Shown: piece by piece, positions 3,659-11,786 of the stretch
Numbering within the stretch: position 1 is the stretch's first letter
How the letters are laid out: each line of letters begins with the position of its first letter
DNA from: Enterobacterales bacterium
Lineage (GTDB): Bacteria; Pseudomonadota; Gammaproteobacteria; Enterobacterales; Enterobacteriaceae
DNA: 13,409 nucleotides
Assembly (NCBI GenBank): GCA_015654745.1
Contig: JAATGH010000204.1
Location: 1 to 13,409 of the forward strand
Direction of reading: 5' to 3'
Program-made: the position numbers and the translations under genes
Notes under the pieces: model-generated
Databases searched by the model: none
Told to the model about the DNA's origin: nothing
The model's input: only the letters and a program-made list of their open reading frames with translations

Positions 3659-3750
3659 GTCCTCCTCCCTAGAGGGCGTTGGCATGGCGGCCGTTAACCG
3701 TCACCGTGACAAAACCGCGCTATGTTACCGCGCCGGGCCGTTGCCGGAAA

Positions 3751-5715
3751 TCATTTTCGCAGCGGGATATCCGGCGGTTCCTGAGCCCCCAAGGGCTCGT
3801 CAAAGCGCAGCAGTCGCCCCGCATTGCCCAATACCAGAAGGGTGCTGAGATTATGCAGTACCGCCGCGATCATCGCCCCGCCGGCGCCAAGTAGACCAAA
3901 CGCCGCCGCGGCGACGATCAGCAGCGTCCACCCCAAACCGATCAATACATTGACCTGTAGCGTATGCCGGCACCGGCGGCTAAGTCGTACACAGGTACCG
4001 AGACGGCGCAAATCGTCGCCGATCAGCACCACGTCCGCCGACGCCAGAGCGATATCGGCGCCGCCCATGGCCACACCCACAACGCCCGCTTTCAACGCCA
4101 GGGAGTCGTTGATACCGTCGCCAACCACCATCGGCCGGAAACCTTGGCGAATTTCCGCGCCAACGCAGCGTAATTTATCCTCAGGCAACGCCTGGGCAAT
4201 CACCTGGTCAATCCCCACATCGGCCGCAATACGGCTGGCGACCCGCAGTCGATCGCCGGTCAGCAACAGTTGCCGCCGGAGACCCAGTTGGCGTAGTTCG
4301 GCCAGCGCCCGCGCCGCCTCGGGGCGCACCGTATCCGCCAGCAGCAGCCAGGCGCAAAATCGTCCGTTAAGCGCCAGACCGACAATGGGTCCGTCATGAT
4401 CGGGGATCGCGGCGGTACTCATGCCCCGCTGTTCAAACAGTTCGGCCCGGCCTAGCACGACCTCGCCCAGCCCGCTGTCGGCGACGACTCCGAGCCCCTG
4501 CAGTTCAATGATATTCTCCAGCGCGGGATAGTCATGTCGAGGCACCAACGCGGCGAGCGCGCGACTGATAGGGTGGTTACTGGTCGCGCCCAGACCGGCG
4601 GCCACGCGCTGGAGCTGGTCCAGGTCTGTGCCCGGCTGTGGGCGGATCGCGTGCAGGCGCAGCGCGCCATGGGTCAGCGTGCCGGTTTTATCGATCACCA
4701 GAGAGGTGAGATCCGCCAGTTCTTCGAGAAAGGCCGCGCTGCGGATCAATATCCCGTGCCGGGCGGCAACCGCCAGCCCGGCGATGGCCGTGGCCGGCGC
4801 CGACAAGACCAGGGCGCAGGGGCAGGCGGCGACCAGAACCGCCAGCATGGCCTGGGCATTGTTGGTAATAAACCAGGTCGTCGCGGCAATCATCAGCACC
4901 AGTATCAGATACCGTCCGGCATATCGCTCCAATAGCCGGACAATGGGCGGCTTGGCATGTTCGGCTTGCTGCATCAGGGCAATCACCTTGCCCAGCGTCG
5001 ACCCTTCGCCGATGCGGGTTACTTCAATACGCAGCAGCCCGTCGAGATTGATTGACCCGCCATAAACCTCCTGACCTGCGCATACATCCAGAGGCAACGA
5101 TTCGCCGGTGATCGGCGCAGTATCCAGACTACCCTGCCCCTCCAGCACCCGACCGTCGGCCGGCACCCGATCGCCGGCGCGCACTTCCACCCAATCACCG
5201 GCAACCAGTAAGGCATTATCGATTTCGCAAATATGGCCCTCGGCGTCAATGCGTCTGGCCTGGCTGCGGGTCAGTTGGCCCAGTGCCTCGATGGCCTCTT
5301 GCGAACCGATAACGCTACGCTCCTCCAGCACATGGCCGAAGATCATAATAATGGGCAGCAGCGCGGTGGTTAGCAGATCACCGCTGGCCCAGGCACAGAG
5401 CATGGCCAAGGCAATCAGCTGATCGGTAATACCGTGCAGGCTGGGATGTCGCAGGCTATGCCAGGCGGAGCGGAACACCGGCAGCGCCACCAGCAGCGCG
5501 GCGCTGCCCAGCAGTAATTGGCCTACGCCCTGCTGCTCGGGAGCGTACCCGCGCCACAGCAACCCGAGGATCAGCAGCCCCGAGGCAATCATGGCCAGGC
5601 TAAGCTGGCGTGCCACGCTGAGCCGTTCCGCCCGGGTCAGCATCGTCGCGGTGAGATGGGTATGATGATGCCCATGGCCGTCGCGGGAGGAAGAAGACGT
5701 AGCTGACCTGCTCAT
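3751..5715 (-). CDS. P1B-type heavy-metal translocating P-type ATPase, 654 aa. It has a His-rich N-terminal tail and no HMA (CxxC) domain.
   Basis: Phosphorylation motif DKTGTLT. Hinge motif GDGINDSLALKAG. Actuator-domain TGES. Transmembrane CPC motif in the context ACPCALVLSAP. HP dipeptide (SNHPIS). Eight predicted TM helices. N-terminus MSRSATSSSSRDGHGHHHTH. The start ATG at 5715..5713 overlaps the upstream gene's TGA (ATGA overlap). Confidence 0.9.
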   Translation of the reverse strand: MSRSATSSSSRDGHGHHHTHLTATMLTRAERLSVARQLSLAMIASGLLILGLLWRGYAPEQQGVGQLLLGSAALLVALPVFRSAWHSLRHPSLHGITDQLIALAMLCAWASGDLLTTALLPIIMIFGHVLEERSVIGSQEAIEALGQLTRSQARRIDAEGHICEIDNALLVAGDWVEVRAGDRVPADGRVLEGQGSLDTAPITGESLPLDVCAGQEVYGGSINLDGLLRIEVTRIGEGSTLGKVIALMQQAEHAKPPIVRLLERYAGRYLILVLMIAATTWFITNNAQAMLAVLVAACPCALVLSAPATAIAGLAVAARHGILIRSAAFLEELADLTSLVIDKTGTLTHGALRLHAIRPQPGTDLDQLQRVAAGLGATSNHPISRALAALVPRHDYPALENIIELQGLGVVADSGLGEVVLGRAELFEQRGMSTAAIPDHDGPIVGLALNGRFCAWLLLADTVRPEAARALAELRQLGLRRQLLLTGDRLRVASRIAADVGIDQVIAQALPEDKLRCVGAEIRQGFRPMVVGDGINDSLALKAGVVGVAMGGADIALASADVVLIGDDLRRLGTCVRLSRRCRHTLQVNVLIGLGWTLLIVAAAAFGLLGAGGAMIAAVLHNLSTLLVLGNAGRLLRFDEPLGAQEPPDIPLRK

Positions 5716-6776
5716 TTTTTGGTAGGCTCCCGAGGCTCAGCGCCCTGCAAAATCAGTTGGGCATCGTCGCCCGGATTGATAACGGTGACCGAACCGGCCT
5801 TGGCGAAAAGAGTCGCCACCCTGGCGCGATAAAGACGCCAAAGCATTCCCGGGTCGTTTCCACTTCGCTGCGTCTGCGCCAAGTTACTGATATCCGCAGT
5901 CTGCGCTTGAGCACGGGCCATACGTTCACTGGCGCCGGCGTAGGCAACCTGCAGCGTGCGATCGGCGTTTTGGGCCGCGGCCTGGGTCTGCCGCGCCGCA
6001 TCGTTTTGCGCCATGGCGATAGCCTGTTCAGCCCGTTGGCTGGCGGTCAGCACGGCGTTAAAGGCATCCACCGCTTCATTTGGCAACGATGACTGTACGT
6101 CTACCCGTTCTATTTCAATGCCCAGCCCGCCGCCGGCGGTGGCCAACGCATCAAGGCTGCGGTTTATCGCCTGTTGCAAATCGCCGCGCAGCCGCTCACG
6201 GCGCTGGGCCGCGCCGCTGTCACCGCTTACCAGTTCCGGCCGGGCAACCAGGATCGTGTCAAGATCGCGCGAGGCGCAGACCATTACCGCCGCGCGTTCC
6301 ACCAACCGGTTTAGCGCGGGTTCAACATGACTGTCCTCCAGCACCCAGGCATAGGGGTCGGTGATGCGGTAAAAGACGCGGACATCCAGCTGCGCCACGC
6401 CCGCGTCGCCGGTGAGCAAATAACCGGATCCGGCGAGTGCGTCGCCGCTCATGCTGATGTCATAGCGGATCTCGCGCGCTTGGTCCGACCGTAGCAGCGC
6501 TTCCACCCGATGTTCGATAACCCTTCCCGGCGAAGGAAGTATCACTACCTGTTCAAACGGCCGTGGCCACGCCCAAAGCAACCCGGCATGTTCAATACGT
6601 TGCATTGCCCCGAAACGCAGAACCACCGCCTGACTGTCGGGATTGATTTGGCGCACATTGGATATCAGCCAGCCGCACGCGGCCAGCAGCGTCAGCGCGT
6701 ACAGCGCCAGAAACACCAGCCGGCCCGTCTGGATCCAGGGTCCCTGTGGATTCGGCCCTCTCTCCGGCCGGTTCAC
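5712..6776 (-). CDS. SPFH/Band-7 (HflK/HflC-like) membrane protein, 354 aa, with a GTG start.
   Basis: N-terminal TM anchor (LVFLALYALTLLAACGWLI), then an SPFH core (AVVLRFGAMQRIEHAGLLWAWPRPFEQV ... DVRVFYRITDPYAWV) and an Ala/Gln-rich coiled C-terminus. The GTG start at 6776..6774 overlaps the upstream stop (GTGA). A GAGGGA Shine-Dalgarno sits 8 nt upstream. Confidence 0.75.
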   Translation of the reverse strand: MNRPERGPNPQGPWIQTGRLVFLALYALTLLAACGWLISNVRQINPDSQAVVLRFGAMQRIEHAGLLWAWPRPFEQVVILPSPGRVIEHRVEALLRSDQAREIRYDISMSGDALAGSGYLLTGDAGVAQLDVRVFYRITDPYAWVLEDSHVEPALNRLVERAAVMVCASRDLDTILVARPELVSGDSGAAQRRERLRGDLQQAINRSLDALATAGGGLGIEIERVDVQSSLPNEAVDAFNAVLTASQRAEQAIAMAQNDAARQTQAAAQNADRTLQVAYAGASERMARAQAQTADISNLAQTQRSGNDPGMLWRLYRARVATLFAKAGSVTVINPGDDAQLILQGAEPREPTKK

Positions 6777-8017
6777 GGATGCGATCCCTCGGCGGGGGCA
6801 TCGGATGCGGCCCCCGCTGCGGCGGCCGGCGGCCGGTGTCCTGTGGGTGGCGCCGGCTGCGGCGCGGAGGGGGCTATCGGTTGCACTGCGCCACTGGTGA
6901 TGGGTAAGCGCGGCGGGCCGTCAACCAGCACGCGAAACGGCGCGGCGTCGGTACGCAAAACCAGACGGGTAGCGGGAGTAATCAAGGTGCCCAGGGTATC
7001 CAGAGAGCGCAGCAGGTTATATAACTCTGGCGAGCTGGCGTAGGCTTTGCCATAGATATCCGCTGACTCGACCTGCGATCGTGCTTCGATGGCGGCGGCC
7101 TTTACCGTAGCATCGGCTTGTATGATGCGGGCGTCTCGTTCCGCGCCCGAGCGGATTTCCGCCGCCTTGCGCTTCCCTTCCGCCGTGCGTTCGGTGGCGA
7201 TGGTCTCGCGTTCGGCGCGCATGCGATCGACCGTGGCGCCCAGGGTCACCGCCGGCAACGTCAGGCGTTCGATGCCCACGCTGATTAACCGTATTCCGTA
7301 ACTGTCTCGTAGGGGCTGCTCAATCTGCGCGCGTAGGCGTTGTTAAACCTGCGCAAGCTGTACCCGGGCGGGATCGGTGTTCACCAGTCGGTCCAACGCA
7401 AAACCGCTGGTCGTGGTTTCCAGCGCCGATCCGACAAAAGTGCGGATTTGCCGGGCCGCTTCATCCGGCTGATTTTGTACCGCGCGCATAAATCGTTCCA
7501 CATGCCCCGGATCGGCCTGTACCTGCCAAACCGCGTAAGCCTGGATGATAATGCGCAGACCATCGCGGGTGCCAACGTCCTGCAGGCCGCTGGACGTCGT
7601 GCGTAGTCGCAAATCAACCGGGATGGCGGTCTCGAAGGGCATCGGCCAGCGCCAGGCGATGCCCGGCTTAAGCAGCACCCGCACGGGATTACCAAAGCGG
7701 GTGATAACCGTGGCCTCCCCCGAACGAACCTGCACCAGACTGGCGGCGGCGGCAATCACCATGACCAGCGCGACGGCCAGTCCCACGCGCCGCCGCCGCG
7801 ATGCGGGAGTGAGCATTGCGTCATGGTCATGGTCATGGTCATGGTCATGGTCATGGTCATGGTCATGGTCATGGTCATGGTCATGGTCATGGAAGGAATG
7901 GTGCCCTCCATGATCTCCGTGTTCACCATCGTGTTCCGGTGGCTGACCGGAACGGGAGGATATCTGACTCAAAGAAGGTCTCCGGCATCGATTACTGGTT
8001 ATCAATAGACTGGCCAT
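6773..8017 (-). pseudogene. HflK/HflC-like SPFH gene encoding an N-terminal His/Asp-rich tail that includes (HD)12. It is interrupted by a single in-frame TAA at 7345..7343. The ORF track splits it into a 224-aa and a 168-aa ORF.
   Basis: The two track ORFs (7343..8017 and 6773..7279) are in the same frame, separated by exactly 21 sense codons after the TAA. My translation reads ...ARVQLAQV*QRLRAQIEQPLRDSYGIRLISVGIERLTLPAV.... The upstream part has a TM segment plus the SPFH N-terminus (ATVITRFGNPVRVLLKPGIAWRWPMPFE). The downstream part is a typical HflC C-terminal half (VDRMRAERE...AIEARSQVESADIYGKAYASSPELYNLLRSLDTLGTLI). A read-through product would be about 414 aa. This could be a nonsense mutation, a sequencing error or read-through, and I cannot distinguish these from sequence alone. 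Confidence 0.6.
7821..7892. repeat. Perfect hexanucleotide tandem repeat (TCATGG)x12. On the minus strand it reads CATGAC, encoding (His-Asp)12.
   Basis: Seen directly: 72 bp of uninterrupted TCATGG. The flanking minus-strand codons are degenerate copies (gaa cac gat ggt gaa cac gga gat cat gga ggg cac cat = EHDGEHGDHGGHH). It lies inside the 5' part of the interrupted SPFH gene. The plus-strand ORFs reading SWSW..., HGHG... and VMVM... are frame shadows of this tract. Confidence 0.95.
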
Positions 8018-10019
8018 TTGGCGCGTCCGGTCGCTGCGGCGGCGGCGGTCCTAACGGCTGCTTTGCCTGGGGTTTGCCCACATCTGGACCCGCCGCGCCG
8101 GCATCGATCGGCGCGCTGAAATTTCTCAAATCAAGGGTGGGCGACGCGCCCGCGCTGATACGATGATCAAGCAGCAACATGGGCGTATTGGCCAGCGCCT
8201 GGCTAAGACGGCTGAAATAGGTCTCACTAAGAAAGGCTTGTCCGGCAGTTCGCCATGCCTGGCGTTGTGCGGTGAAACGCAGCTCCGCCGCGCGGGCGCC
8301 GGCGATATTCTCATGCGCACCCGCATCGGCCCGATCGGCGCGCATGCCGGCATCGAGCCGGGCGGCGCTGAGCAGCGCTGACGCATTGCCACCTTCGCGC
8401 GCAACCAGCGCCTGCGCCGCGATCTGCGCCGCCTGCACCCCATGGTAAGCATTGGCGGCTCCTGCCGGGGGATGGATAGCCTCAATGACGATGGCCAACA
8501 TTTCCACCCCGCTATTTAGGGCATCCAGCCGGTCTTGCACCTGACGGTGAATATTGTCGGCCAGACCCGCACGCTGGCTGCCCAACACGCCATCGAGCGT
8601 CAAAGACGCAAACTCGCGCACCAATATCTGATTGGCGGTGCTGCGGATTAACGAAGGAATATCGGCGCTGTTGTAGGCGGATGCCAGCGCCGCCGTATCG
8701 GTTAAACCGACGCGATAGATAAAACGCACATCCATATCGACGATCTGAAAGCTTTGCGCATTACCCATGTCGCTGGCAATAACCTGTGATTTCTCATTGC
8801 CGTGAACGCCATCCCACAGCCGGTTGGCGCTCTGTGGCGCGTCGCCTTCCGCCGCCACCGGCTCCTGATGCGCTTCCCCTGCCGCCACCAGCGTGGTCAG
8901 TTCATGCACTTCGCCATTTTCCACTGGCAATACGCGGCCGAACGGCCAGGGTAAACCCACATGCAGACCGGGAACCCATACCGCCGCGGGCTTGCCGAAA
9001 CGTTCATAAATACCGCGGCCGTTAACGGCGACTTCGCTAACGCCCGTCAGCATCCAGGCCACCAGCATCAATAGGATCAGCACCGGCGCAAACGCCCGCC
9101 GCATAAACGAAAAGGCCCAGACCTGGCGAAGATCGATACCAAAACGCTGCTTAATGTCCTCTTGTAGCGACGCCATAGATTGCGGCGGCCAACGCAGTTG
9201 GCCGGCGATAAAACTTGCGCCGATAAGCCGCGGCTCCTGACCAGGCCGTTGGGGATAAAAGAGGGAAAACAGCGCCCTGCCGGCGATTTCCAGCGCCACC
9301 AGCGCCGGTAATAGGCCGGTGAACATGGCCAGGTATGCCGGCCAGGGCAACGACGCGTCGGAAAACCATAAACAAAGCGCACACAACAGCGCCACGGCGA
9401 TCGCCACCCGGAGAAAGGGACCCAGGACCGCGGCCTCCGGCCACTCGGCTTCGGTGAGGGAGGCGAGGTAGCGCTCGAACAGCACTAAGGCAACGGCGGA
9501 CAAGAGCAGCAGGCCGGCGCCGACGTTAATCATCCTGCCGGGACCGGCGCTGGGTATGGCCAACCGCCATCCCAGAAAGACCATCAGCAACGCCAGCAGC
9601 GACAGCCCGATGATCCACAGCGCATCGGTGCCGACGCGCTGCCCATATTTTGCCAGGCGGTCAAGTCCGGCGCTCAGCCAGGTCAGTTTGGCCATACTGT
9701 CGACTACTGGGCCATCGGCGCCGCCCGCCGATGGCGCTGCCATAGACAGCAACGCGGCCGCCCGCCAGCGGGTCACGCCCCAGGCGGACTGAAACATCGC
9801 GATCAGCACCAGCAATACCGCGCTGATATTGCACAGGACCGGCAACCCTATTGAATCGGCGGCGTAAACATCAAACACCAGCGCGATGACGATCAACAGA
9901 CCACAAAGATTGCCCAACCCGAGCAGTAGCCAATACAGCCGCCGCGCCTGCCATTCAGCCTGCAGAAAACGCGGGAGCCGTGCCGGGCTCGCCTGCTCAT
10001 GCTCTGAATTATCGTCCAT
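7992..10019 (-). CDS. Fusion protein of about 675 aa. An N-terminal polytopic membrane domain of about 300 aa (roughly 6 TM, family not recognised) is followed by an SPFH/Band-7 domain and an Ala/Pro-rich C-terminal tail.
   Basis: SPFH core: SEVAVNGRGIYERFGKPAAVWVPGLHVGLPWPFGRV ... FQIVDMDVRFIYRV. The C-terminus is HflK-like and Ala-rich, ending in PPPPQRPDAPNGQ. I prefer the start ATG at 10019..10017, which has GGAG 5 nt upstream. The ORF-track ATG at 10079 has no SD. The 3' end overlaps the next SPFH gene's start by 26 nt. Confidence 0.65.
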   Translation of the reverse strand: MDDNSEHEQASPARLPRFLQAEWQARRLYWLLLGLGNLCGLLIVIALVFDVYAADSIGLPVLCNISAVLLVLIAMFQSAWGVTRWRAAALLSMAAPSAGGADGPVVDSMAKLTWLSAGLDRLAKYGQRVGTDALWIIGLSLLALLMVFLGWRLAIPSAGPGRMINVGAGLLLLSAVALVLFERYLASLTEAEWPEAAVLGPFLRVAIAVALLCALCLWFSDASLPWPAYLAMFTGLLPALVALEIAGRALFSLFYPQRPGQEPRLIGASFIAGQLRWPPQSMASLQEDIKQRFGIDLRQVWAFSFMRRAFAPVLILLMLVAWMLTGVSEVAVNGRGIYERFGKPAAVWVPGLHVGLPWPFGRVLPVENGEVHELTTLVAAGEAHQEPVAAEGDAPQSANRLWDGVHGNEKSQVIASDMGNAQSFQIVDMDVRFIYRVGLTDTAALASAYNSADIPSLIRSTANQILVREFASLTLDGVLGSQRAGLADNIHRQVQDRLDALNSGVEMLAIVIEAIHPPAGAANAYHGVQAAQIAAQALVAREGGNASALLSAARLDAGMRADRADAGAHENIAGARAAELRFTAQRQAWRTAGQAFLSETYFSRLSQALANTPMLLLDHRISAGASPTLDLRNFSAPIDAGAAGPDVGKPQAKQPLGPPPPQRPDAPNGQSIDNQ

Positions 10020-10079
10020 GATCGCTCCGAAGCATGCCGGGGCGACATCCGCAACTTGCCATCGTTTGGCCAACGCCAT

Positions 10080-10236
10080 GAATACAGTGAACGCTGTGCA
10101 TTATAGGAGATCGTCGTGAGTATTTAGCGTAACTTTATAACATCACTAAATACCCGAAAACAGCTTTATTACCAAAACTATGTAACCATACATATAGTTA
10201 GGAACATGCTAGGTTTATGCCCGCCACGCATAAACG
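10080..10236 (-). promoter_or_regulatory. AT-rich 157-bp intergenic region upstream of the SPFH-SPFH-SPFH-ATPase cluster. Probable promoter region.
   Basis: A perfect TATAAT on the minus strand (plus coordinates 10105..10100) sits 20 nt before the ORF-track ATG at 10079 and about 80 nt before the SD-supported ATG at 10019. No good -35 or TG extension. AT-rich in an otherwise GC-rich locus. Confidence 0.3.
10214..10234. other. Perfect inverted repeat TTTATGC-N7-GCATAAA, 3 nt downstream of the ABC ATPase stop codon.
   Basis: Seen directly. The stem is 7 bp and AT-rich, and no U-tract follows on the minus-strand transcript. It is therefore not a canonical intrinsic terminator. It could be a weak hairpin or a protein-binding palindrome. 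Confidence 0.3.
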
Positions 10237-11016
10237 TTAAAGCATATGCCGCCGGGCTTCGACGCGCACCAGGTGCAGGATTTGCTGCTTGATCACAGTG
10301 TAGCCCGGCGCCTGCGCCAGGGTTTCGATATTCCGGTCCCGGCCGAAGGGTAAAATCACTTCATCGACTATTTTGCCCGGCCGCGCGGACATCACCAAAA
10401 TCCGATCGGCGAGAAACAGCGCCTCTTCCACATCGTGGGTAACAAATAAAATCGTCGTGCCGGTCTGCCGCCAGGCATCCCGCAACAGTTCCTGCATCAT
10501 CATTCGTGTTTGCGCGTCCAGCGCCCCAAAGGGTTCATCCATTAACAGCACCTCCGGGTCCGGCAGCCAGGCCCGAGCCAGGGCCACCCGCTGTTTCATC
10601 CCGCCGGACAGTTGCCATGGCGCATGCTGGCCAAAGCCGTCCAAACCCACCCGTGTGAGCCAATCGCCAGCCTGGGCATTGGCCTCGGCTTTCTTTAACC
10701 CGGCCATGCGCGGGCCAAAGGAGATATTGTCCAATACCGATAGCCAGGGAAAAAGATTGGGCTGCTGGAACACCATGCCACGACTCGGATGCGGGCCGCG
10801 CACCGGACGACCGGCGCAAAGGATCCGCCCCTGCTGCGCAAGGGTAAAACCGGCAATCAGGTTCAGTATGGTGGACTTACCGCAGCCGGAAGGGCCGAGC
10901 AGCACCACGAATTCACCTTGGTCCAAGGCGAGCGACACATCGTCCAGTACCCTCAGCGCCTGGGGTTGCCCGGAGAATGTCAGCGTGACGTGCTCCAGGG
11001 TAATATGCTGCGTCAT
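10237..11016 (-). CDS. ABC transporter ATP-binding protein of the NitT/TauT family (TauB/SsuB-like), about 260 aa.
   Basis: Walker A LLGPSGCGKST. Q-loop. ABC signature LSGGMKQRVALARA. Walker B LLMDEPFGALD. H-loop VTHD. The ORF-track 398-aa version is over-extended into the permease gene. The real start is the ATG at 11016..11014, which has GGAAGGA 4-5 nt upstream and forms an ATGA overlap with the permease stop. Confidence 0.85.
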   Translation of the reverse strand: MTQHITLEHVTLTFSGQPQALRVLDDVSLALDQGEFVVLLGPSGCGKSTILNLIAGFTLAQQGRILCAGRPVRGPHPSRGMVFQQPNLFPWLSVLDNISFGPRMAGLKKAEANAQAGDWLTRVGLDGFGQHAPWQLSGGMKQRVALARAWLPDPEVLLMDEPFGALDAQTRMMMQELLRDAWRQTGTTILFVTHDVEEALFLADRILVMSARPGKIVDEVILPFGRDRNIETLAQAPGYTVIKQQILHLVRVEARRHML

Positions 11017-11786
11017 GCGTCCTTCCCTGCCCAGGGTACTAGCCATTTTTGCAATCCCACAATCAGTAAATCCAGTAAATAGCCAATGGCGCCCAGCAGC
11101 AGGATGCCAATCATCACGATATCGGTGCGCAAATAGGCACTGGCGTTGATCACCATCCATCCTAAGCCCGAGGTAGCCGCCACCAGTTCGGCGGCAATCA
11201 GCGAGGTCCAACCGACGCCTATGGACAGCCGCACGCTGGTAAACAGCTCGGGCAACGTATCCGGCAGCACCACGCGCCAAAAAATCTGCCGACGGGAGGC
11301 GCCAAGGGTCTGCGCCACACGGATCCGGGCGCCCCCGATTCGCTCCACCGCGGCGGCGGCGCCCACCACTACGCTTAGGAACGTGGCGATAAAAATCAGG
11401 AAAAATTTCGACGACTCGCCGATACCCAGCCATACCACCGCTAATGGAATCAGGGCGATTTTAGGTAACGGCCGCAAAAACTGGACAAAGGGATTGAGCG
11501 CGGCGGCGATCGGCTGCGACAATCCCATCAGCAGGCCCAGGGGAATGCCGCAGGCGATGGCCACGGTAAAGGCGCTGAGCGCGCGTGCCAGGCTAATGGC
11601 AATATGCTGCCATAACGGTACCTGACGGTAGCCGTCATGGAGCAGCTCAACGGTGGTTTCAGCAATATCGGAGAGCGGAGGCAGCAATAAGGGGTCGACC
11701 CAATGGCGTACTCCGGCGACTTGCCACAGCAGAAAAAACAGCGTCACCGAGACGACGCTGATAGCAACATGATTAACCGCTTTCAT
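11013..11786 (-). CDS. ABC transporter permease of the TauC/SsuC family (binding-protein-dependent inner-membrane component), 257 aa.
   Basis: Six predicted TM helices and an EAA-like loop region (ALSAFTVAIACGIPLGLLMG...). It lies 8 nt downstream of the SBP gene and is ATGA-coupled to the ATPase gene. Confidence 0.8.
   Translation of the reverse strand: MKAVNHVAISVVSVTLFFLLWQVAGVRHWVDPLLLPPLSDIAETTVELLHDGYRQVPLWQHIAISLARALSAFTVAIACGIPLGLLMGLSQPIAAALNPFVQFLRPLPKIALIPLAVVWLGIGESSKFFLIFIATFLSVVVGAAAAVERIGGARIRVAQTLGASRRQIFWRVVLPDTLPELFTSVRLSIGVGWTSLIAAELVAATSGLGWMVINASAYLRTDIVMIGILLLGAIGYLLDLLIVGLQKWLVPWAGKDA

What the first reader, a model, noticed from the sequence alone, without database searches (positions are those of the whole stretch)
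7821..7892. Coding hexanucleotide microsatellite (TCATGG)12 producing a (His-Asp)12 metal-binding-like tail
Twelve perfect 6-bp units lie inside a coding region, which is rare in an enterobacterial chromosome. Because the unit length is 6, slipped-strand gain or loss keeps the frame and only changes the tail length, making this a potential in-frame contingency locus. The flanking codons are diverged copies (EHDGEHGDHGGHH), which argues that the tract is translated and selected for His/Asp content. HD- and His-rich tails bind Ni/Zn/Co in HypB, SlyD, UreE and CDF transporters. That fits the neighbouring metal ATPase, which also has an HGHHHTH tail.
Basis: partly seen in the sequence, partly recalled or inferred. 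Interest (0 to 1): 0.65.

Follow-up and report, generated by a model that had tools for sequence, protein, structure and literature searches.

The report
His-Asp repeat tail on zinc-cassette scaffold
A perfect 12-unit six-base repeat encodes a (His-Asp)12 stretch in the disordered, probably cytoplasmic and zinc-binding, N-terminal tail of a membrane scaffold (SPFH) protein that travels with a zinc/copper-pumping ATPase; the tail is real and length-variable in related bacteria, but in this genome the gene carries a premature stop.

Summary
The repeat is real: 12 perfect hexanucleotide units at 7820-7892, far beyond chance. On the minus strand it reads (CAT GAC)12 = (His-Asp)12.

It is translated. 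It lies between a conserved TTG start at 7972 (with GGAG) and an RRRR + transmembrane helix + SPFH domain. The protein is an HflC-like paralogue.

The gene is the second of a four-gene cassette conserved in 80/80 related genomes: large SPFH, His-tail SPFH, third SPFH, P1B ATPase. This cassette matches the Zur-bound, zinc-starvation-induced P. aeruginosa PA2439-PA2435 (hmtA) cluster.

98% of orthologues have a His-rich tail. The 12-unit perfect array is an outlier (next longest is 4-5 units), so it is a recent slippage expansion.

In-frame length polymorphism is documented in orthologues: P. aeruginosa strains carry 1-5 HD units on a constant 288-aa core.

Long CATGAC arrays in metagenomes sit mostly in Zn/Ni/Co proteins (CobW, NicO, CDF, ZnuA). 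An HD motif binds Zn in mycobacterial PacL1.

Caveats:
- In this window an invariant Glu codon is TAA (7343-7345). An otherwise identical contig has GAA.
- Metal binding and copy-number variation in this species are untested.

Verdict: ordinary in kind, a nice extreme example, with a modestly interesting hypothesis for the SPFH-ATPase cassette.

The parts
7820..7892 (-). Perfect hexanucleotide array. (CAT GAC)12 at 7891..7820 encodes (His-Asp)12, residues 28-51 of the protein.
   Evidence: TRF. Exact matches and shuffle control. Codon view.
7817..7972 (-). Whole His/Asp-rich N-terminal tail (MSQISSRSGQPPEHDGEHGDHGGHHSFH(DH)n...DA; 17 His, 14 Asp in 56 aa). The older part uses mixed codons. The tail is predicted disordered.
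   Evidence: Orthologue tails. AF2 pLDDT <50 for the tail of orthologue P0001.
7970..7972 (-). Probable TTG start codon of the His-tail SPFH gene.
   Evidence: Conserved in L082, where the gene caller also starts there (P0001 = MSQISS...). The P. aeruginosa orthologue also starts with TTG..
7980..7983 (-). GGAG ribosome-binding site, 7 nt upstream of the TTG.
   Evidence: Read from the sequence. Conserved in L082.
7730..7798 (-). RRRR (residues 59-62) followed by the single transmembrane helix (residues 63-81). The positive-inside rule puts the tail in the cytoplasm.
   Evidence: Hydropathy and charge count. Homology to E. coli HflC TM + SPFH.
6773..7972 (-). Conceptual full-length HflC-like SPFH gene (399 codons, PA2438 orthologue). 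It is interrupted here by a stop at 7343-7345.
   Evidence: Pfam Band_7. Frame continuity. 2486 homologues. PDB HflC E=1.8e-15.
7343..7345 (-). In-frame TAA replacing an invariant Glu (GAA in sister contig L081). It truncates the product to 209 aa: tail + TM + about two-thirds of the SPFH domain, with no coiled coil.
   Evidence: the single mismatch in 2749 bases. (E192 is an invariant column).
7992..10079 (-). Large HflK-like SPFH membrane protein (PA2439 orthologue, 49% identity). The true start is probably the ATG at 10019.
5712..6776 (-). Third SPFH protein (PA2437 orthologue, 65% identity). Its start overlaps the stop of the His-tail gene.
3751..5715 (-). P1B-type heavy-metal ATPase (HmtA/PA2435 orthologue, 74% identity) with a His-rich N-terminus (GHGHHHTH) and a CPC motif.
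10128..10142 (-). Candidate Zur box TGTTATAAAGTTACG upstream of the cassette, about 22 nt upstream of a TATAAT at 10100-10105.
   Evidence: 14/15 identical to the site in the Zur-binding P. aeruginosa PA2439 promoter region. It is the only such site in the window, and 2/20000 shuffles do as well. Zur EMSA is reported in PMC8531726.

Best explanation
The array is the most recently expanded part of a translated, intrinsically disordered, cytoplasmic His/Asp-rich N-terminal tail. The tail belongs to an HflC-like SPFH scaffold protein, the orthologue of P. aeruginosa PA2438.

This gene sits in a conserved four-gene cassette: three SPFH paralogues plus an HmtA-type P1B ATPase. In Pseudomonas the cassette is bound by Zur and induced by zinc starvation.

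Shown here:
- The tract is in frame and translated from a conserved TTG.
- A His-rich tail is a near-universal feature of the family.
- Tail length changes in 2-residue (6-nt) steps among strains of other species.
- The 12 identical CAT GAC units are an outlier, hence a recent replication-slippage expansion.

Inferred:
- The tail binds Zn(II), possibly also Cu, Ni or Co, through alternating His imidazoles and Asp carboxylates.
- SPFH proteins oligomerise into rings or cages, so a dozen or more such tails would form a dense metal-binding collar on the cytoplasmic face. It would lie next to the ATPase and its own His-rich N-terminus.
- That collar would capture or buffer metal delivered by the pump, or sense cytoplasmic metal to gate it.
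- Selection keeps His-richness rather than exact sequence, so slippage can freely tune capacity.

In this particular sequence a TAA at codon 210 truncates the protein before its oligomerisation helices. Here the tail is likely attached to a non-functional fragment, unless the stop is a sequencing error.
For: - Repeat and frame.
- Start codon: TTG and GGAG are conserved in L082; the alternative ATGs are not conserved. P. aeruginosa also uses TTG.
- Family feature: 115/117 top family representatives have >=5 His in the tail. The median is 17 His in 80 species loci.
- Outlier status: the longest perfect period-6 run elsewhere is 28 nt against 73 nt here. The maximum HD run among representatives is 5.
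- Within-species polymorphism: P. aeruginosa alleles of 335/337/339/341/343 aa equal (HD)1-5 on a constant 288-aa core, encoded by perfect (CACGAT)n. P. faucium and the P. putida group show the same.
- Cassette synteny: 80/80 loci.
- Orthology to the P. aeruginosa cluster.
- Zn regulation in P. aeruginosa: mRNA up 6-14x (PMC4542158); Zur EMSA on the PA2439 promoter (PMC8531726); proteins up (PMC11761036).
- A matching 15-mer lies upstream in the window.
- Topology and fold: one TM helix with 4 Arg on the N side; HflC/HflK are the best PDB matches; the tail is disordered in the AF2 model.
- Metal link of HD arrays: 72 metagenomic ORFs with (CATGAC)>=8 are dominated by CobW/HypB/UreG (15), NicO (11), CDF (6) and ZnuA (4).
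- Experimental precedent: the PacL1 motif DLHDHDH binds Zn 1:1 with KD ~6 uM (PMC9374683).
Against: - No metal-binding measurement exists for this tail or any orthologue.
- No copy-number data exist for this species. The only sister contig (L081) breaks inside the repeat, and the metagenome scan for the flank found nothing.
- A few orthologues (Sodalis sp. RH16, P0012, Acerihabitans L037) have almost no His in the tail. The tail is therefore dispensable in some lineages.
- One study saw no Zn repression of hmtA mRNA (PMC8531726). The direction of HmtA transport is still debated (PMC10393844).
- The gene is interrupted here. The extreme length could therefore reflect relaxed constraint rather than selection.
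- A physical SPFH-ATPase interaction has not been demonstrated anywhere.
Confidence: 0.68

Rival explanations
1. Neutral low-complexity drift. The tail only needs to be a short hydrophilic N-terminus. His/Asp repeats are tolerated slippage products with no metal function. The 12-unit array expanded because the gene is decaying (pseudogene) in this lineage.
For: - The gene carries a nonsense codon here.
- Some orthologues have nearly His-free tails.
- Tail sequence and length are very poorly conserved.
Against: - Composition is strongly conserved even though sequence is not: >=5 His in 98% of representatives, median 11-17 His, across very different codon and repeat solutions (HD, HG, HS, H-runs). 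This argues for selection on His content.
- The sister contig is identical except for the stop (1/2749). The stop is therefore very recent, and that contig already carries at least 5 units at its broken end.
- HD arrays elsewhere are concentrated in metal proteins.
Confidence: 0.17
2. The tract is not translated. It is a 5'-UTR or intergenic microsatellite, and translation begins at the ATG at 7816 (AMLTPAS...). The repeat could then act through its RNA hairpin on translation of the SPFH gene.
For: - An in-frame ATG lies directly after the tract.
- (CAUGAC)n is self-complementary and folds better than shuffles, z=-4.4.
Against: - There is no Shine-Dalgarno sequence before that ATG.
- In the closest relative the ATG is out of frame, while the upstream TTG and GGAG are conserved.
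- Essentially every orthologue encodes a His-rich tail in frame.
- Length variants occur only in multiples of 6 nt.
- The upstream gene's stop codon (7992-7994) ends only 17 nt before the TTG, leaving a tight operon junction.
Confidence: 0.04
3. Assembly artefact. The copy number of 12 (and/or the TAA) is a product of mis-assembly or a sequencing error, not of the genome.
For: - Short-k assemblies break at this repeat: L081 starts inside it, and several P. aeruginosa partial proteins start inside theirs.
- The TAA is the only difference from L081.
Against: - A 72-nt array is spanned by ordinary 100-150 nt reads.
- The window is contiguous with unique flanks on both sides, and the array is in frame.
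- The existence of an HD tract here is independently confirmed by L081 (at least 5 units).
Confidence: 0.08
4. Adaptive contingency locus. High-frequency slippage generates subpopulations with different tail lengths and different metal capacity or regulation, and these are selected under fluctuating metal supply.
For: - 12 perfect units is in the range where slippage is frequent (established knowledge of bacterial simple sequence repeats).
- Multiple alleles coexist in P. aeruginosa, P. faucium and the P. putida group.
Against: - The unit length is 6, so there is no on/off switching.
- In P. aeruginosa one allele (n=5) dominates: >1000 contigs against tens for the others. That looks like ordinary polymorphism rather than rapid switching.
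- There are no within-population data and no phenotype linked to length.
Confidence: 0.12

Closest known systems
P. aeruginosa PA2438 ('HflC') within the PA2439-PA2434 hmtA cluster
   Same: - Same gene order: large SPFH, His-tail SPFH, third SPFH, P1B ATPase.
- 72% identity for the tail protein, 74% for the ATPase, 65% and 49% for the other SPFH proteins.
- Also a TTG start, a His-rich tail containing a perfect hexanucleotide (HD)n array, and RR + TM + SPFH.
- Near-identical 15-mer upstream.
   Different: - (HD)12 encoded by CATGAC here, against (HD)1-5 encoded by CACGAT there.
- The window lacks the small PA2436 and PA2434 genes.
- The host is an Enterobacterales-like genome.
- The gene here carries a premature stop.
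E. coli HflC/HflK (FtsH-modulating SPFH cage; PDB 7VHP, 7WI3)
   Same: - Single N-terminal TM helix, SPFH domain and long coiled-coil helix.
- Best sequence and fold matches in the PDB.
- Hetero-oligomeric SPFH partners encoded side by side.
   Different: - Scores fall below the NCBIfam equivalog cut-offs for HflC (92.9 < 134.4) and HflK (54.2 < 159.4).
- HflC has no His-rich tail.
- The partner gene here is a P1B ATPase, not ftsH.
- There are three SPFH paralogues instead of two.
Mycobacterial PacL1 (DUF1490) with the P1B ATPase CtpC
   Same: - Single-pass membrane protein co-operonic with a P1B ATPase.
- Carries a terminal HD-repeat metal-binding motif (DLHDHDH) that binds Zn.
- Proposed scaffold/chaperone forming high-molecular-weight platforms with the pump (PMC9374683).
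   Different: - Unrelated fold (DUF1490 versus SPFH).
- The motif is C-terminal and short.
- The system is an exporter for Zn resistance, not a starvation-induced cassette.
- It is restricted to Actinobacteria.
His-rich low-complexity segments of metal-handling proteins (COG0523/CobW, HypB, UreE, SlyD, ZnuA loop, CDF and NicO loops)
   Same: - Disordered His/Asp-rich stretches of variable length.
- Long perfect CATGAC arrays encoding (HD)8-27 are found in exactly these families in metagenomes.
   Different: - Those proteins are transporters, chaperones or binding proteins themselves. Here the carrier is a scaffold protein with no known metal chemistry.
- None of the 113 metagenomic HD-frame ORFs (>=60 aa) matched the window's cassette proteins by BLASTP.

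Membership tests
SPFH / Band 7 superfamily | Significant match to the Band_7 (PF01145) domain above the gathering score. | tested here: met
   72.6 bits against a cut-off of 23.6 for the truncated ORF. Homologues all carry PF01145.
SPFH / Band 7 superfamily | Architecture: N-terminal membrane anchor, alpha/beta SPFH core, long coiled-coil helix. Fold similarity to solved SPFH proteins. | tested here: met
   The AF2 model of orthologue P0001 has TM 38-60, core 120-221 and helix 223-295. Foldseek top hits are HflC, prohibitin and stomatin, probability 1.00. TM-scores are low (0.2-0.3) because the chains are elongated.
True HflC (FtsH protease modulator, TIGR01932 equivalog) | Score at or above the NCBIfam equivalog cut-off. 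| tested here: not met
   92.9 bits against a cut-off of 134.4; PRK11029 77 against 427. Public annotations of orthologues as 'protease modulator HflC' are therefore by similarity only.
True HflC (FtsH protease modulator, TIGR01932 equivalog) | Genomic pairing with hflK (hflX-hflK-hflC context) and functional partnership with FtsH. | tested here: not met
   The context is a cassette with two other SPFH paralogues and a P1B ATPase in 80/80 loci. There is no ftsH or hflX in the window. FtsH interaction is not testable here.
HmtA cassette (P. aeruginosa PA2439-PA2435 orthologous group) | Conserved gene order large SPFH > His-tail SPFH > SPFH > P1B ATPase, with high pairwise identity to the P. aeruginosa genes. 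| tested here: met
   (49-74% identity over full lengths).
HmtA cassette (P. aeruginosa PA2439-PA2435 orthologous group) | Zur binding and zinc-starvation induction. | tested here: inconclusive
   The window's upstream 15-mer is 14/15 identical to the P. aeruginosa promoter sequence (2/20000 shuffles). A related 17-bp palindrome occurs in 75/82 loci. The window site has 4 mismatches to the E. coli-type Zur core. The exact Zur footprint in P. aeruginosa is not given in the papers read. Expression is not testable here.
P1B heavy-metal ATPase (for the neighbouring pump) | Score above the TIGR01525 / TIGR01512 subfamily cut-offs; CPC motif in the membrane domain; DKTGT phosphorylation site. | tested here: met
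   508.1 > 346.25 and 471.4 > 313.5. ACPCALV and DKTGTLT are visible in the translation.
Bacterial simple-sequence contingency loci (phase-variable genes) | Repeat changes switch expression on/off (unit not a multiple of 3, or promoter spacing). | tested here: not met
   The unit is 6 nt and in frame. All observed alleles in orthologues differ by multiples of 6 nt and keep the frame.
Bacterial simple-sequence contingency loci (phase-variable genes) | High-frequency length variation within a strain or population. | not testable with these tools
   Only between-strain polymorphism in other species could be shown. No read data are available for this organism.
His-rich metal-binding tails | Direct binding of Zn/Ni/Co/Cu by the segment. 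| not testable with these tools
   Indirect only: composition (17 His, 14 Asp in 56 aa), the family distribution of HD arrays, and PacL1 DLHDHDH binding Zn (PMC9374683).

The most novel reading that the evidence does not exclude
The three SPFH paralogues build a membrane cage or ring around the HmtA-type ATPase. The His-rich tails of the PA2438-type subunit (about a dozen per assembly, about 200 His with this allele) would form a dedicated cytoplasmic zinc-receiving and buffering collar. The cassette would then be a self-contained 'metal import compartment'. Hexanucleotide slippage in the tail would tune its metal capacity or set-point between strains. This would be a first defined client and mechanism for a bacterial SPFH assembly other than FtsH, and the first scaffold-borne metallochaperone for a P-type ATPase importer.
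Probability: 0.2. Interest if true: 0.72.

Novelty: new member of a known kind. Interest (0 to 1): 0.42.

Why it matters
The function of the three SPFH genes co-transcribed with hmtA under zinc starvation is unknown, and the transport direction and role of HmtA are still debated. The papers found by my six full-text searches (seven of them opened) describe these genes only as 'HflC/HflK-like'.

Two observations here turn a vague annotation into a testable hypothesis:
- The middle SPFH protein almost always carries a His-rich, probably cytoplasmic, tail. That points to a direct role in metal handling next to the pump, analogous to PacL1-CtpC in mycobacteria.
- The tail varies by in-frame slippage even among P. 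aeruginosa strains.

For genome annotation the finding has three practical messages:
- 'Protease modulator HflC' is a misnomer for this family.
- The TTG start, and hence the tail, should be kept.
- Such arrays break short-read assemblies.

The (HD)12 allele itself is an extreme but ordinary example of a microsatellite-encoded metal-binding tract.

Tried and rejected
- E. coli genomes, near search: no match. Plasmids: only distant ATPase hits in Rhizobium. Neither helped to find strains.
- Exact-protein look-ups of the window's PTS and large SPFH proteins: not on record. The source genome and other same-species contigs could not be retrieved. Only L081 (2.7 kb) was found.
- Metagenome scan with the unique 3' flank of the repeat: 0 hits. 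Copy-number variation in this species remains unknown.
- E. coli-type Zur core TGTTATAWTATAACA at <=3 mismatches: no match in the window. It was replaced by an empirical comparison with the P. aeruginosa promoter and 80 loci.
- The sigma-70 scan upstream of the cassette found no convincing minus-strand promoter. The TATAAT at 10100-10105 was seen by eye only.
- tRNA and Rfam scans of the window: nothing. No RNA element explains the repeat.
- The HmtA primary paper (Lewinson 2009) is not held. Statements about HmtA import rest on the reviews and papers that cite it.
- Considered and rejected: 5'-UTR repeat, on/off phase variation (unit of 6), and genuine HflC.
- Organism identity was not pursued with another large protein search. 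The nearest named relatives of the cassette are Sodalis sp. RH16 and Acerihabitans (Pectobacteriaceae). L082 is flanked by DUF1414- and DUF3413/sulfatase-family genes, an arrangement I recognise from memory as the yejL-yejM pair typical of Enterobacterales.
Full report
**1. The observation**

Tandem Repeats Finder reports a single array at 7820-7892 with period 6, 12.2 copies and 100% identity. The 18-mer CATGACCATGACCATGAC occurs ten times in register on the minus strand. It never occurs in 200 dinucleotide-preserving shuffles.

On the coding strand it is (CAT GAC)12 at 7891..7820.

**2. What the tract sits in**

All long ORFs around it are on the minus strand. The tract lies in an ORF whose product is:
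- a His/Asp-rich segment,
- then RRRR,
- then one hydrophobic helix (residues 63-81),
- then a Band_7/SPFH domain (Pfam 72.6 bits against a cut-off of 23.6).

The gene order on the minus strand is:
- a large SPFH membrane protein (10079/10019..7992),
- the His-tail SPFH gene (7972..6773),
- a third SPFH gene (6776..5712),
- a P1B heavy-metal ATPase (5715..3751) with a GHGHHHTH N-terminus and a CPC motif.

So the 'neighbouring metal ATPase' exists. It is two genes downstream in the same tightly packed, overlapping-stop/start operon.

**3. Is the tract translated?**

The closest relative found (contig L082, ~83-86% DNA identity, same synteny) answers it in a DNA alignment:
- It conserves the TTG at window 7972 and the GGAG 7 nt upstream.
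- It has ACG where the window has the upstream ATG (8017).
- The downstream ATG is out of frame there.

Its gene was called from that TTG (P0001 = MSQISSRSGQPPEHD...). The P. aeruginosa orthologue also starts with TTG.

Independently, 115 of 117 family representatives carry at least 5 His between the start and the TM helix. The tract is therefore coding, and part of an N-terminal tail.

**4. The family and the cassette**

The protein has 2486 homologues at E<=0.001 among the 8000 candidates scored. Those that carry a source name are mostly annotated 'protease modulator HflC'; many have no name. Most are from Pseudomonas, and a few are from Enterobacterales (Sodalis, Paramixta, Pantoea, Acerihabitans).

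In 80 of 80 genomic loci the four genes occur in the same order and strand.

A P. aeruginosa locus (L203) shows the published PA2439-PA2434 layout. Identity of the window's proteins to it:

| Protein | Identity |
|---|---|
| ATPase | 74% |
| Large SPFH | 49% |
| Third SPFH | 65% |
| Tail protein | 72% |

Literature on that cluster:
- It is up 6-14-fold in a znuA mutant and has a weak predicted Zur site (PMC4542158).
- Purified Zur shifts the PA2439 promoter in a Zn-dependent way (PMC8531726).
- PA2438 and PA2439 proteins rise under Zn depletion (PMC11761036).
- HmtA is described as an atypical Zn/Cu importer, with reservations (PMC10393844).
- None of these papers discusses the SPFH partners beyond their names, or the His-rich tail.

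**5. Not a true HflC**

Against NCBIfam the tail protein scores 92.9 bits, against an HflC equivalog cut-off of 134.4. The large protein scores 54.2 against 159.4 for HflK. There is no ftsH or hflX context.

The fold is nevertheless SPFH:
- The best PDB sequence matches are E. coli HflC (1.8e-15) and HflK.
- An AlphaFold model of P0001 shows a disordered tail (pLDDT <50), a confident TM helix, the alpha/beta core and a 73-residue helix.
- Foldseek returns HflC, the FtsH-HflK/C complex, prohibitin and stomatin first.

These proteins work like SPFH ring or cage formers (inference). They are paralogues with a different, unknown client.

**6. Topology**

There are four Arg before the TM helix and two basic residues after it. 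HflK/C extends into the periplasm from an N-terminal anchor (PMC12048511 abstract; topology from established knowledge of HflK/C). Together these place the tail in the cytoplasm. This is inferred, not shown.

**7. Conserved feature versus recent expansion**

Across 80 species the tails have a median of 17 His and 4 Asp but hardly any conserved sequence. They use HD, HG and HS dipeptide runs or His runs.

| Measure | Elsewhere | This window |
|---|---|---|
| Longest perfect period-6 DNA run | 28 nt | 73 nt |
| Longest HD run among 117 representatives | 5 | 12 |

In the window the older, upstream part of the tail uses mixed codons (CAC/CAT, GAT/GAC). The 12 units are all CAT GAC. This is the signature of a recent replication-slippage expansion on top of an anciently His-rich tail.

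**8. Length polymorphism**

No second complete copy of this species' locus could be found. The one sister contig, L081, starts inside the repeat with 5 units, a typical k-mer assembly break.

In orthologues the predicted polymorphism is plain:
- P. aeruginosa proteins of 335, 337, 339, 341 and 343 aa differ only by HHH(DH)nGHG with n=1-5, on a constant 288-aa core.
- n=5 is by far the commonest (>1000 contigs, against 100 or fewer for each other variant listed).
- The array there is a perfect (CACGAT)n.
- P. faucium ((HD)2-5) and the P. putida group behave alike.

In-frame slippage at this position is thus a recurrent, independently arising property of the family. Whether it is adaptive is unknown. 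Classic on/off phase variation is excluded by the 6-nt unit.

**9. Why metal, and which metal**

A collection-wide scan for (CATGAC)8 hit more than 120 metagenomic contigs, with arrays of 8-27 units. Of the 125 arrays, 76 lie in His-Asp-frame ORFs with >=150 flanking residues.

A Pfam scan of the 72 distinct ORFs is dominated by metal-handling families:
- CobW/HypB/UreG GTPases: 15
- NicO: 11
- CobW_C: 9
- Cation_efflux (CDF): 6
- ZnuA: 4

None of the 113 HD-frame ORFs of at least 60 aa matched the window's cassette proteins by BLASTP.

Experimentally, the PacL1 motif DLHDHDH binds Zn 1:1 (KD ~6 uM) and not Mn. PacL1 is a single-pass partner that scaffolds the P1B ATPase CtpC (PMC9374683).

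Together with the Zur link, Zn is the most likely ligand. Cu, Ni or Co cannot be excluded.

**10. Regulation in the window**

Upstream of the cassette, TGTTATAAAGTTACG (10142..10128, minus strand) is 14/15 identical to a 15-mer in the P. aeruginosa PA2439 upstream region. It is the only such site in the window, and 2 of 20,000 shuffles do as well.

Most other Pseudomonas loci (75/82) carry a related 17-bp palindrome, TCGTTA-TATCG-TAACGA.

The site misses the E. coli-type Zur core by 4 positions. The published papers do not print the footprint. Zur control here is therefore a reasonable inference, not a result.

**11. The premature stop**

The frame of the tail gene continues through a single TAA at 7343-7345 to a stop at 6773. 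L081 comes from another run and matches window 7849..5101 with one mismatch in 2749 bases. That mismatch is this codon: GAA in L081, TAA in the window.

The Glu is invariant in a 52-sequence alignment (E192 of P0001). The window therefore encodes a 209-aa fragment: tail, TM helix and about two-thirds of the SPFH domain, with no coiled coil. The alternative is a base-call error. Either way the mutation is very recent.

**12. Mechanism proposed**

Shown:
- a translated, variable, His/Asp-rich N-terminal tail,
- on an SPFH paralogue,
- inside a conserved HmtA-type cassette.

Inferred:
- cytoplasmic location,
- Zn binding,
- oligomeric display of many tails next to the ATPase, acting as an acceptor, buffer or sensor for transported metal,
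- tail length tuned by slippage under selection for composition only.

Rivals (neutral drift or pseudogene relaxation, UTR, artefact, adaptive contingency) are weighed in the rival list.

**13. Verdict**

The kind of thing is known: a microsatellite-encoded His-rich metal-binding tract, in an orthologue of an annotated, Zn-regulated gene. The specific carrier (an SPFH scaffold) and its within-species polymorphism were not described in the papers found by my full-text searches, and they give a concrete handle on an uncharacterised cassette. Interest is moderate.

Noticed in passing
window 7343-7345 (minus strand): An in-frame TAA interrupts the His-tail SPFH gene at a Glu that is invariant in 52 orthologues. 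An otherwise identical contig from another sequencing run (L081, 1 mismatch in 2749 nt) has GAA. This is either a very recent nonsense mutation (pseudogene) or a base-call error.
   Followed up: yes
window 10128-10142 (minus strand); also 10100-10105: The candidate Zur box TGTTATAAAGTTACG is 14/15 identical to the P. aeruginosa PA2439 upstream sequence. It lies about 22 nt upstream of a TATAAT. A related 17-bp palindrome, TCGTTATATCGTAACGA, sits upstream of the cassette in 75/82 loci.
   Followed up: partly
window 3750-10080 versus flanks: The four-gene cassette is 60-65% GC, while the flanking PTS/AmiA-like and ABC-transporter genes are 53-59% GC. The cassette is mainly a Pseudomonas feature, and its proteins are 74-80% identical to Pseudomonas ones. 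This suggests horizontal acquisition by this Enterobacterales-like genome.
   Followed up: partly
window 10019 versus 10079 (minus strand): The large SPFH ORF is listed from the ATG at 10079. Alignment with the P. aeruginosa orthologue begins at Met21 (ATG at 10019), which has a GGAG 5 nt upstream. The true start is probably 10019.
   Followed up: partly
window 7800-8000 (minus strand RNA/DNA): (CAUGAC)n is self-complementary through its CAUG palindrome and folds into a long imperfect hairpin (MFE -65.8 kcal/mol, z = -4.4 against shuffles). This could promote slippage and might affect translation of the tail.
   Followed up: no
When they are in the His-Asp frame they sit mostly in CobW/COG0523, NicO, CDF and ZnuA genes: internally in 45, C-terminally in 18 and N-terminally in 13 of 76 ORFs.
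   Followed up: partly
L203 7001-7096 and proteins P0121-P0148: The P. aeruginosa PA2438 orthologue has a perfect (CACGAT)n array with n=1-5 among strains. Several NCBI 'partial' proteins begin exactly inside the repeat, showing that it breaks short-read assemblies. The public name 'protease modulator HflC' is below the NCBIfam equivalog cut-off for the window's orthologue (the P. aeruginosa protein itself was not scanned).
   Followed up: yes
window 5712-5715 and L203 9217-9651, 11749-12204: The window lacks equivalents of the small PA2436 (144 aa) and PA2434 (DUF4946, 151 aa) genes of the P. aeruginosa cluster. Here the third SPFH stop overlaps the ATPase start.
   Followed up: no
window 6773-6900 and 7992-8060 (minus strand): Both the His-tail protein and the large SPFH protein end in Pro/Ala-rich low-complexity C-terminal tails (…PIAPSAPQPAPPTGHRPPAAAAGAAS…; …KQPLGPPPPQRPDAPNGQ…). 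These are low-confidence in the AF2 model. A short GC-rich repeat is reported at 6820-6836.
   Followed up: no
window 10237-11433 (minus strand): The ABC-transporter ATPase ORF has an Arg-rich N-terminal extension of about 140 aa that overlaps the upstream permease gene (11013-11786). The real start is probably the internal Met before TQHITLEHV.
   Followed up: no
proteins P0010, P0012; locus L037: The orthologues from Sodalis sp. RH16, Acerihabitans and a third, unnamed NCBI sequence (P0012) have almost no His in the tail (1-3 His). The tail has therefore been lost or never expanded in some lineages that keep the cassette.
   Followed up: no
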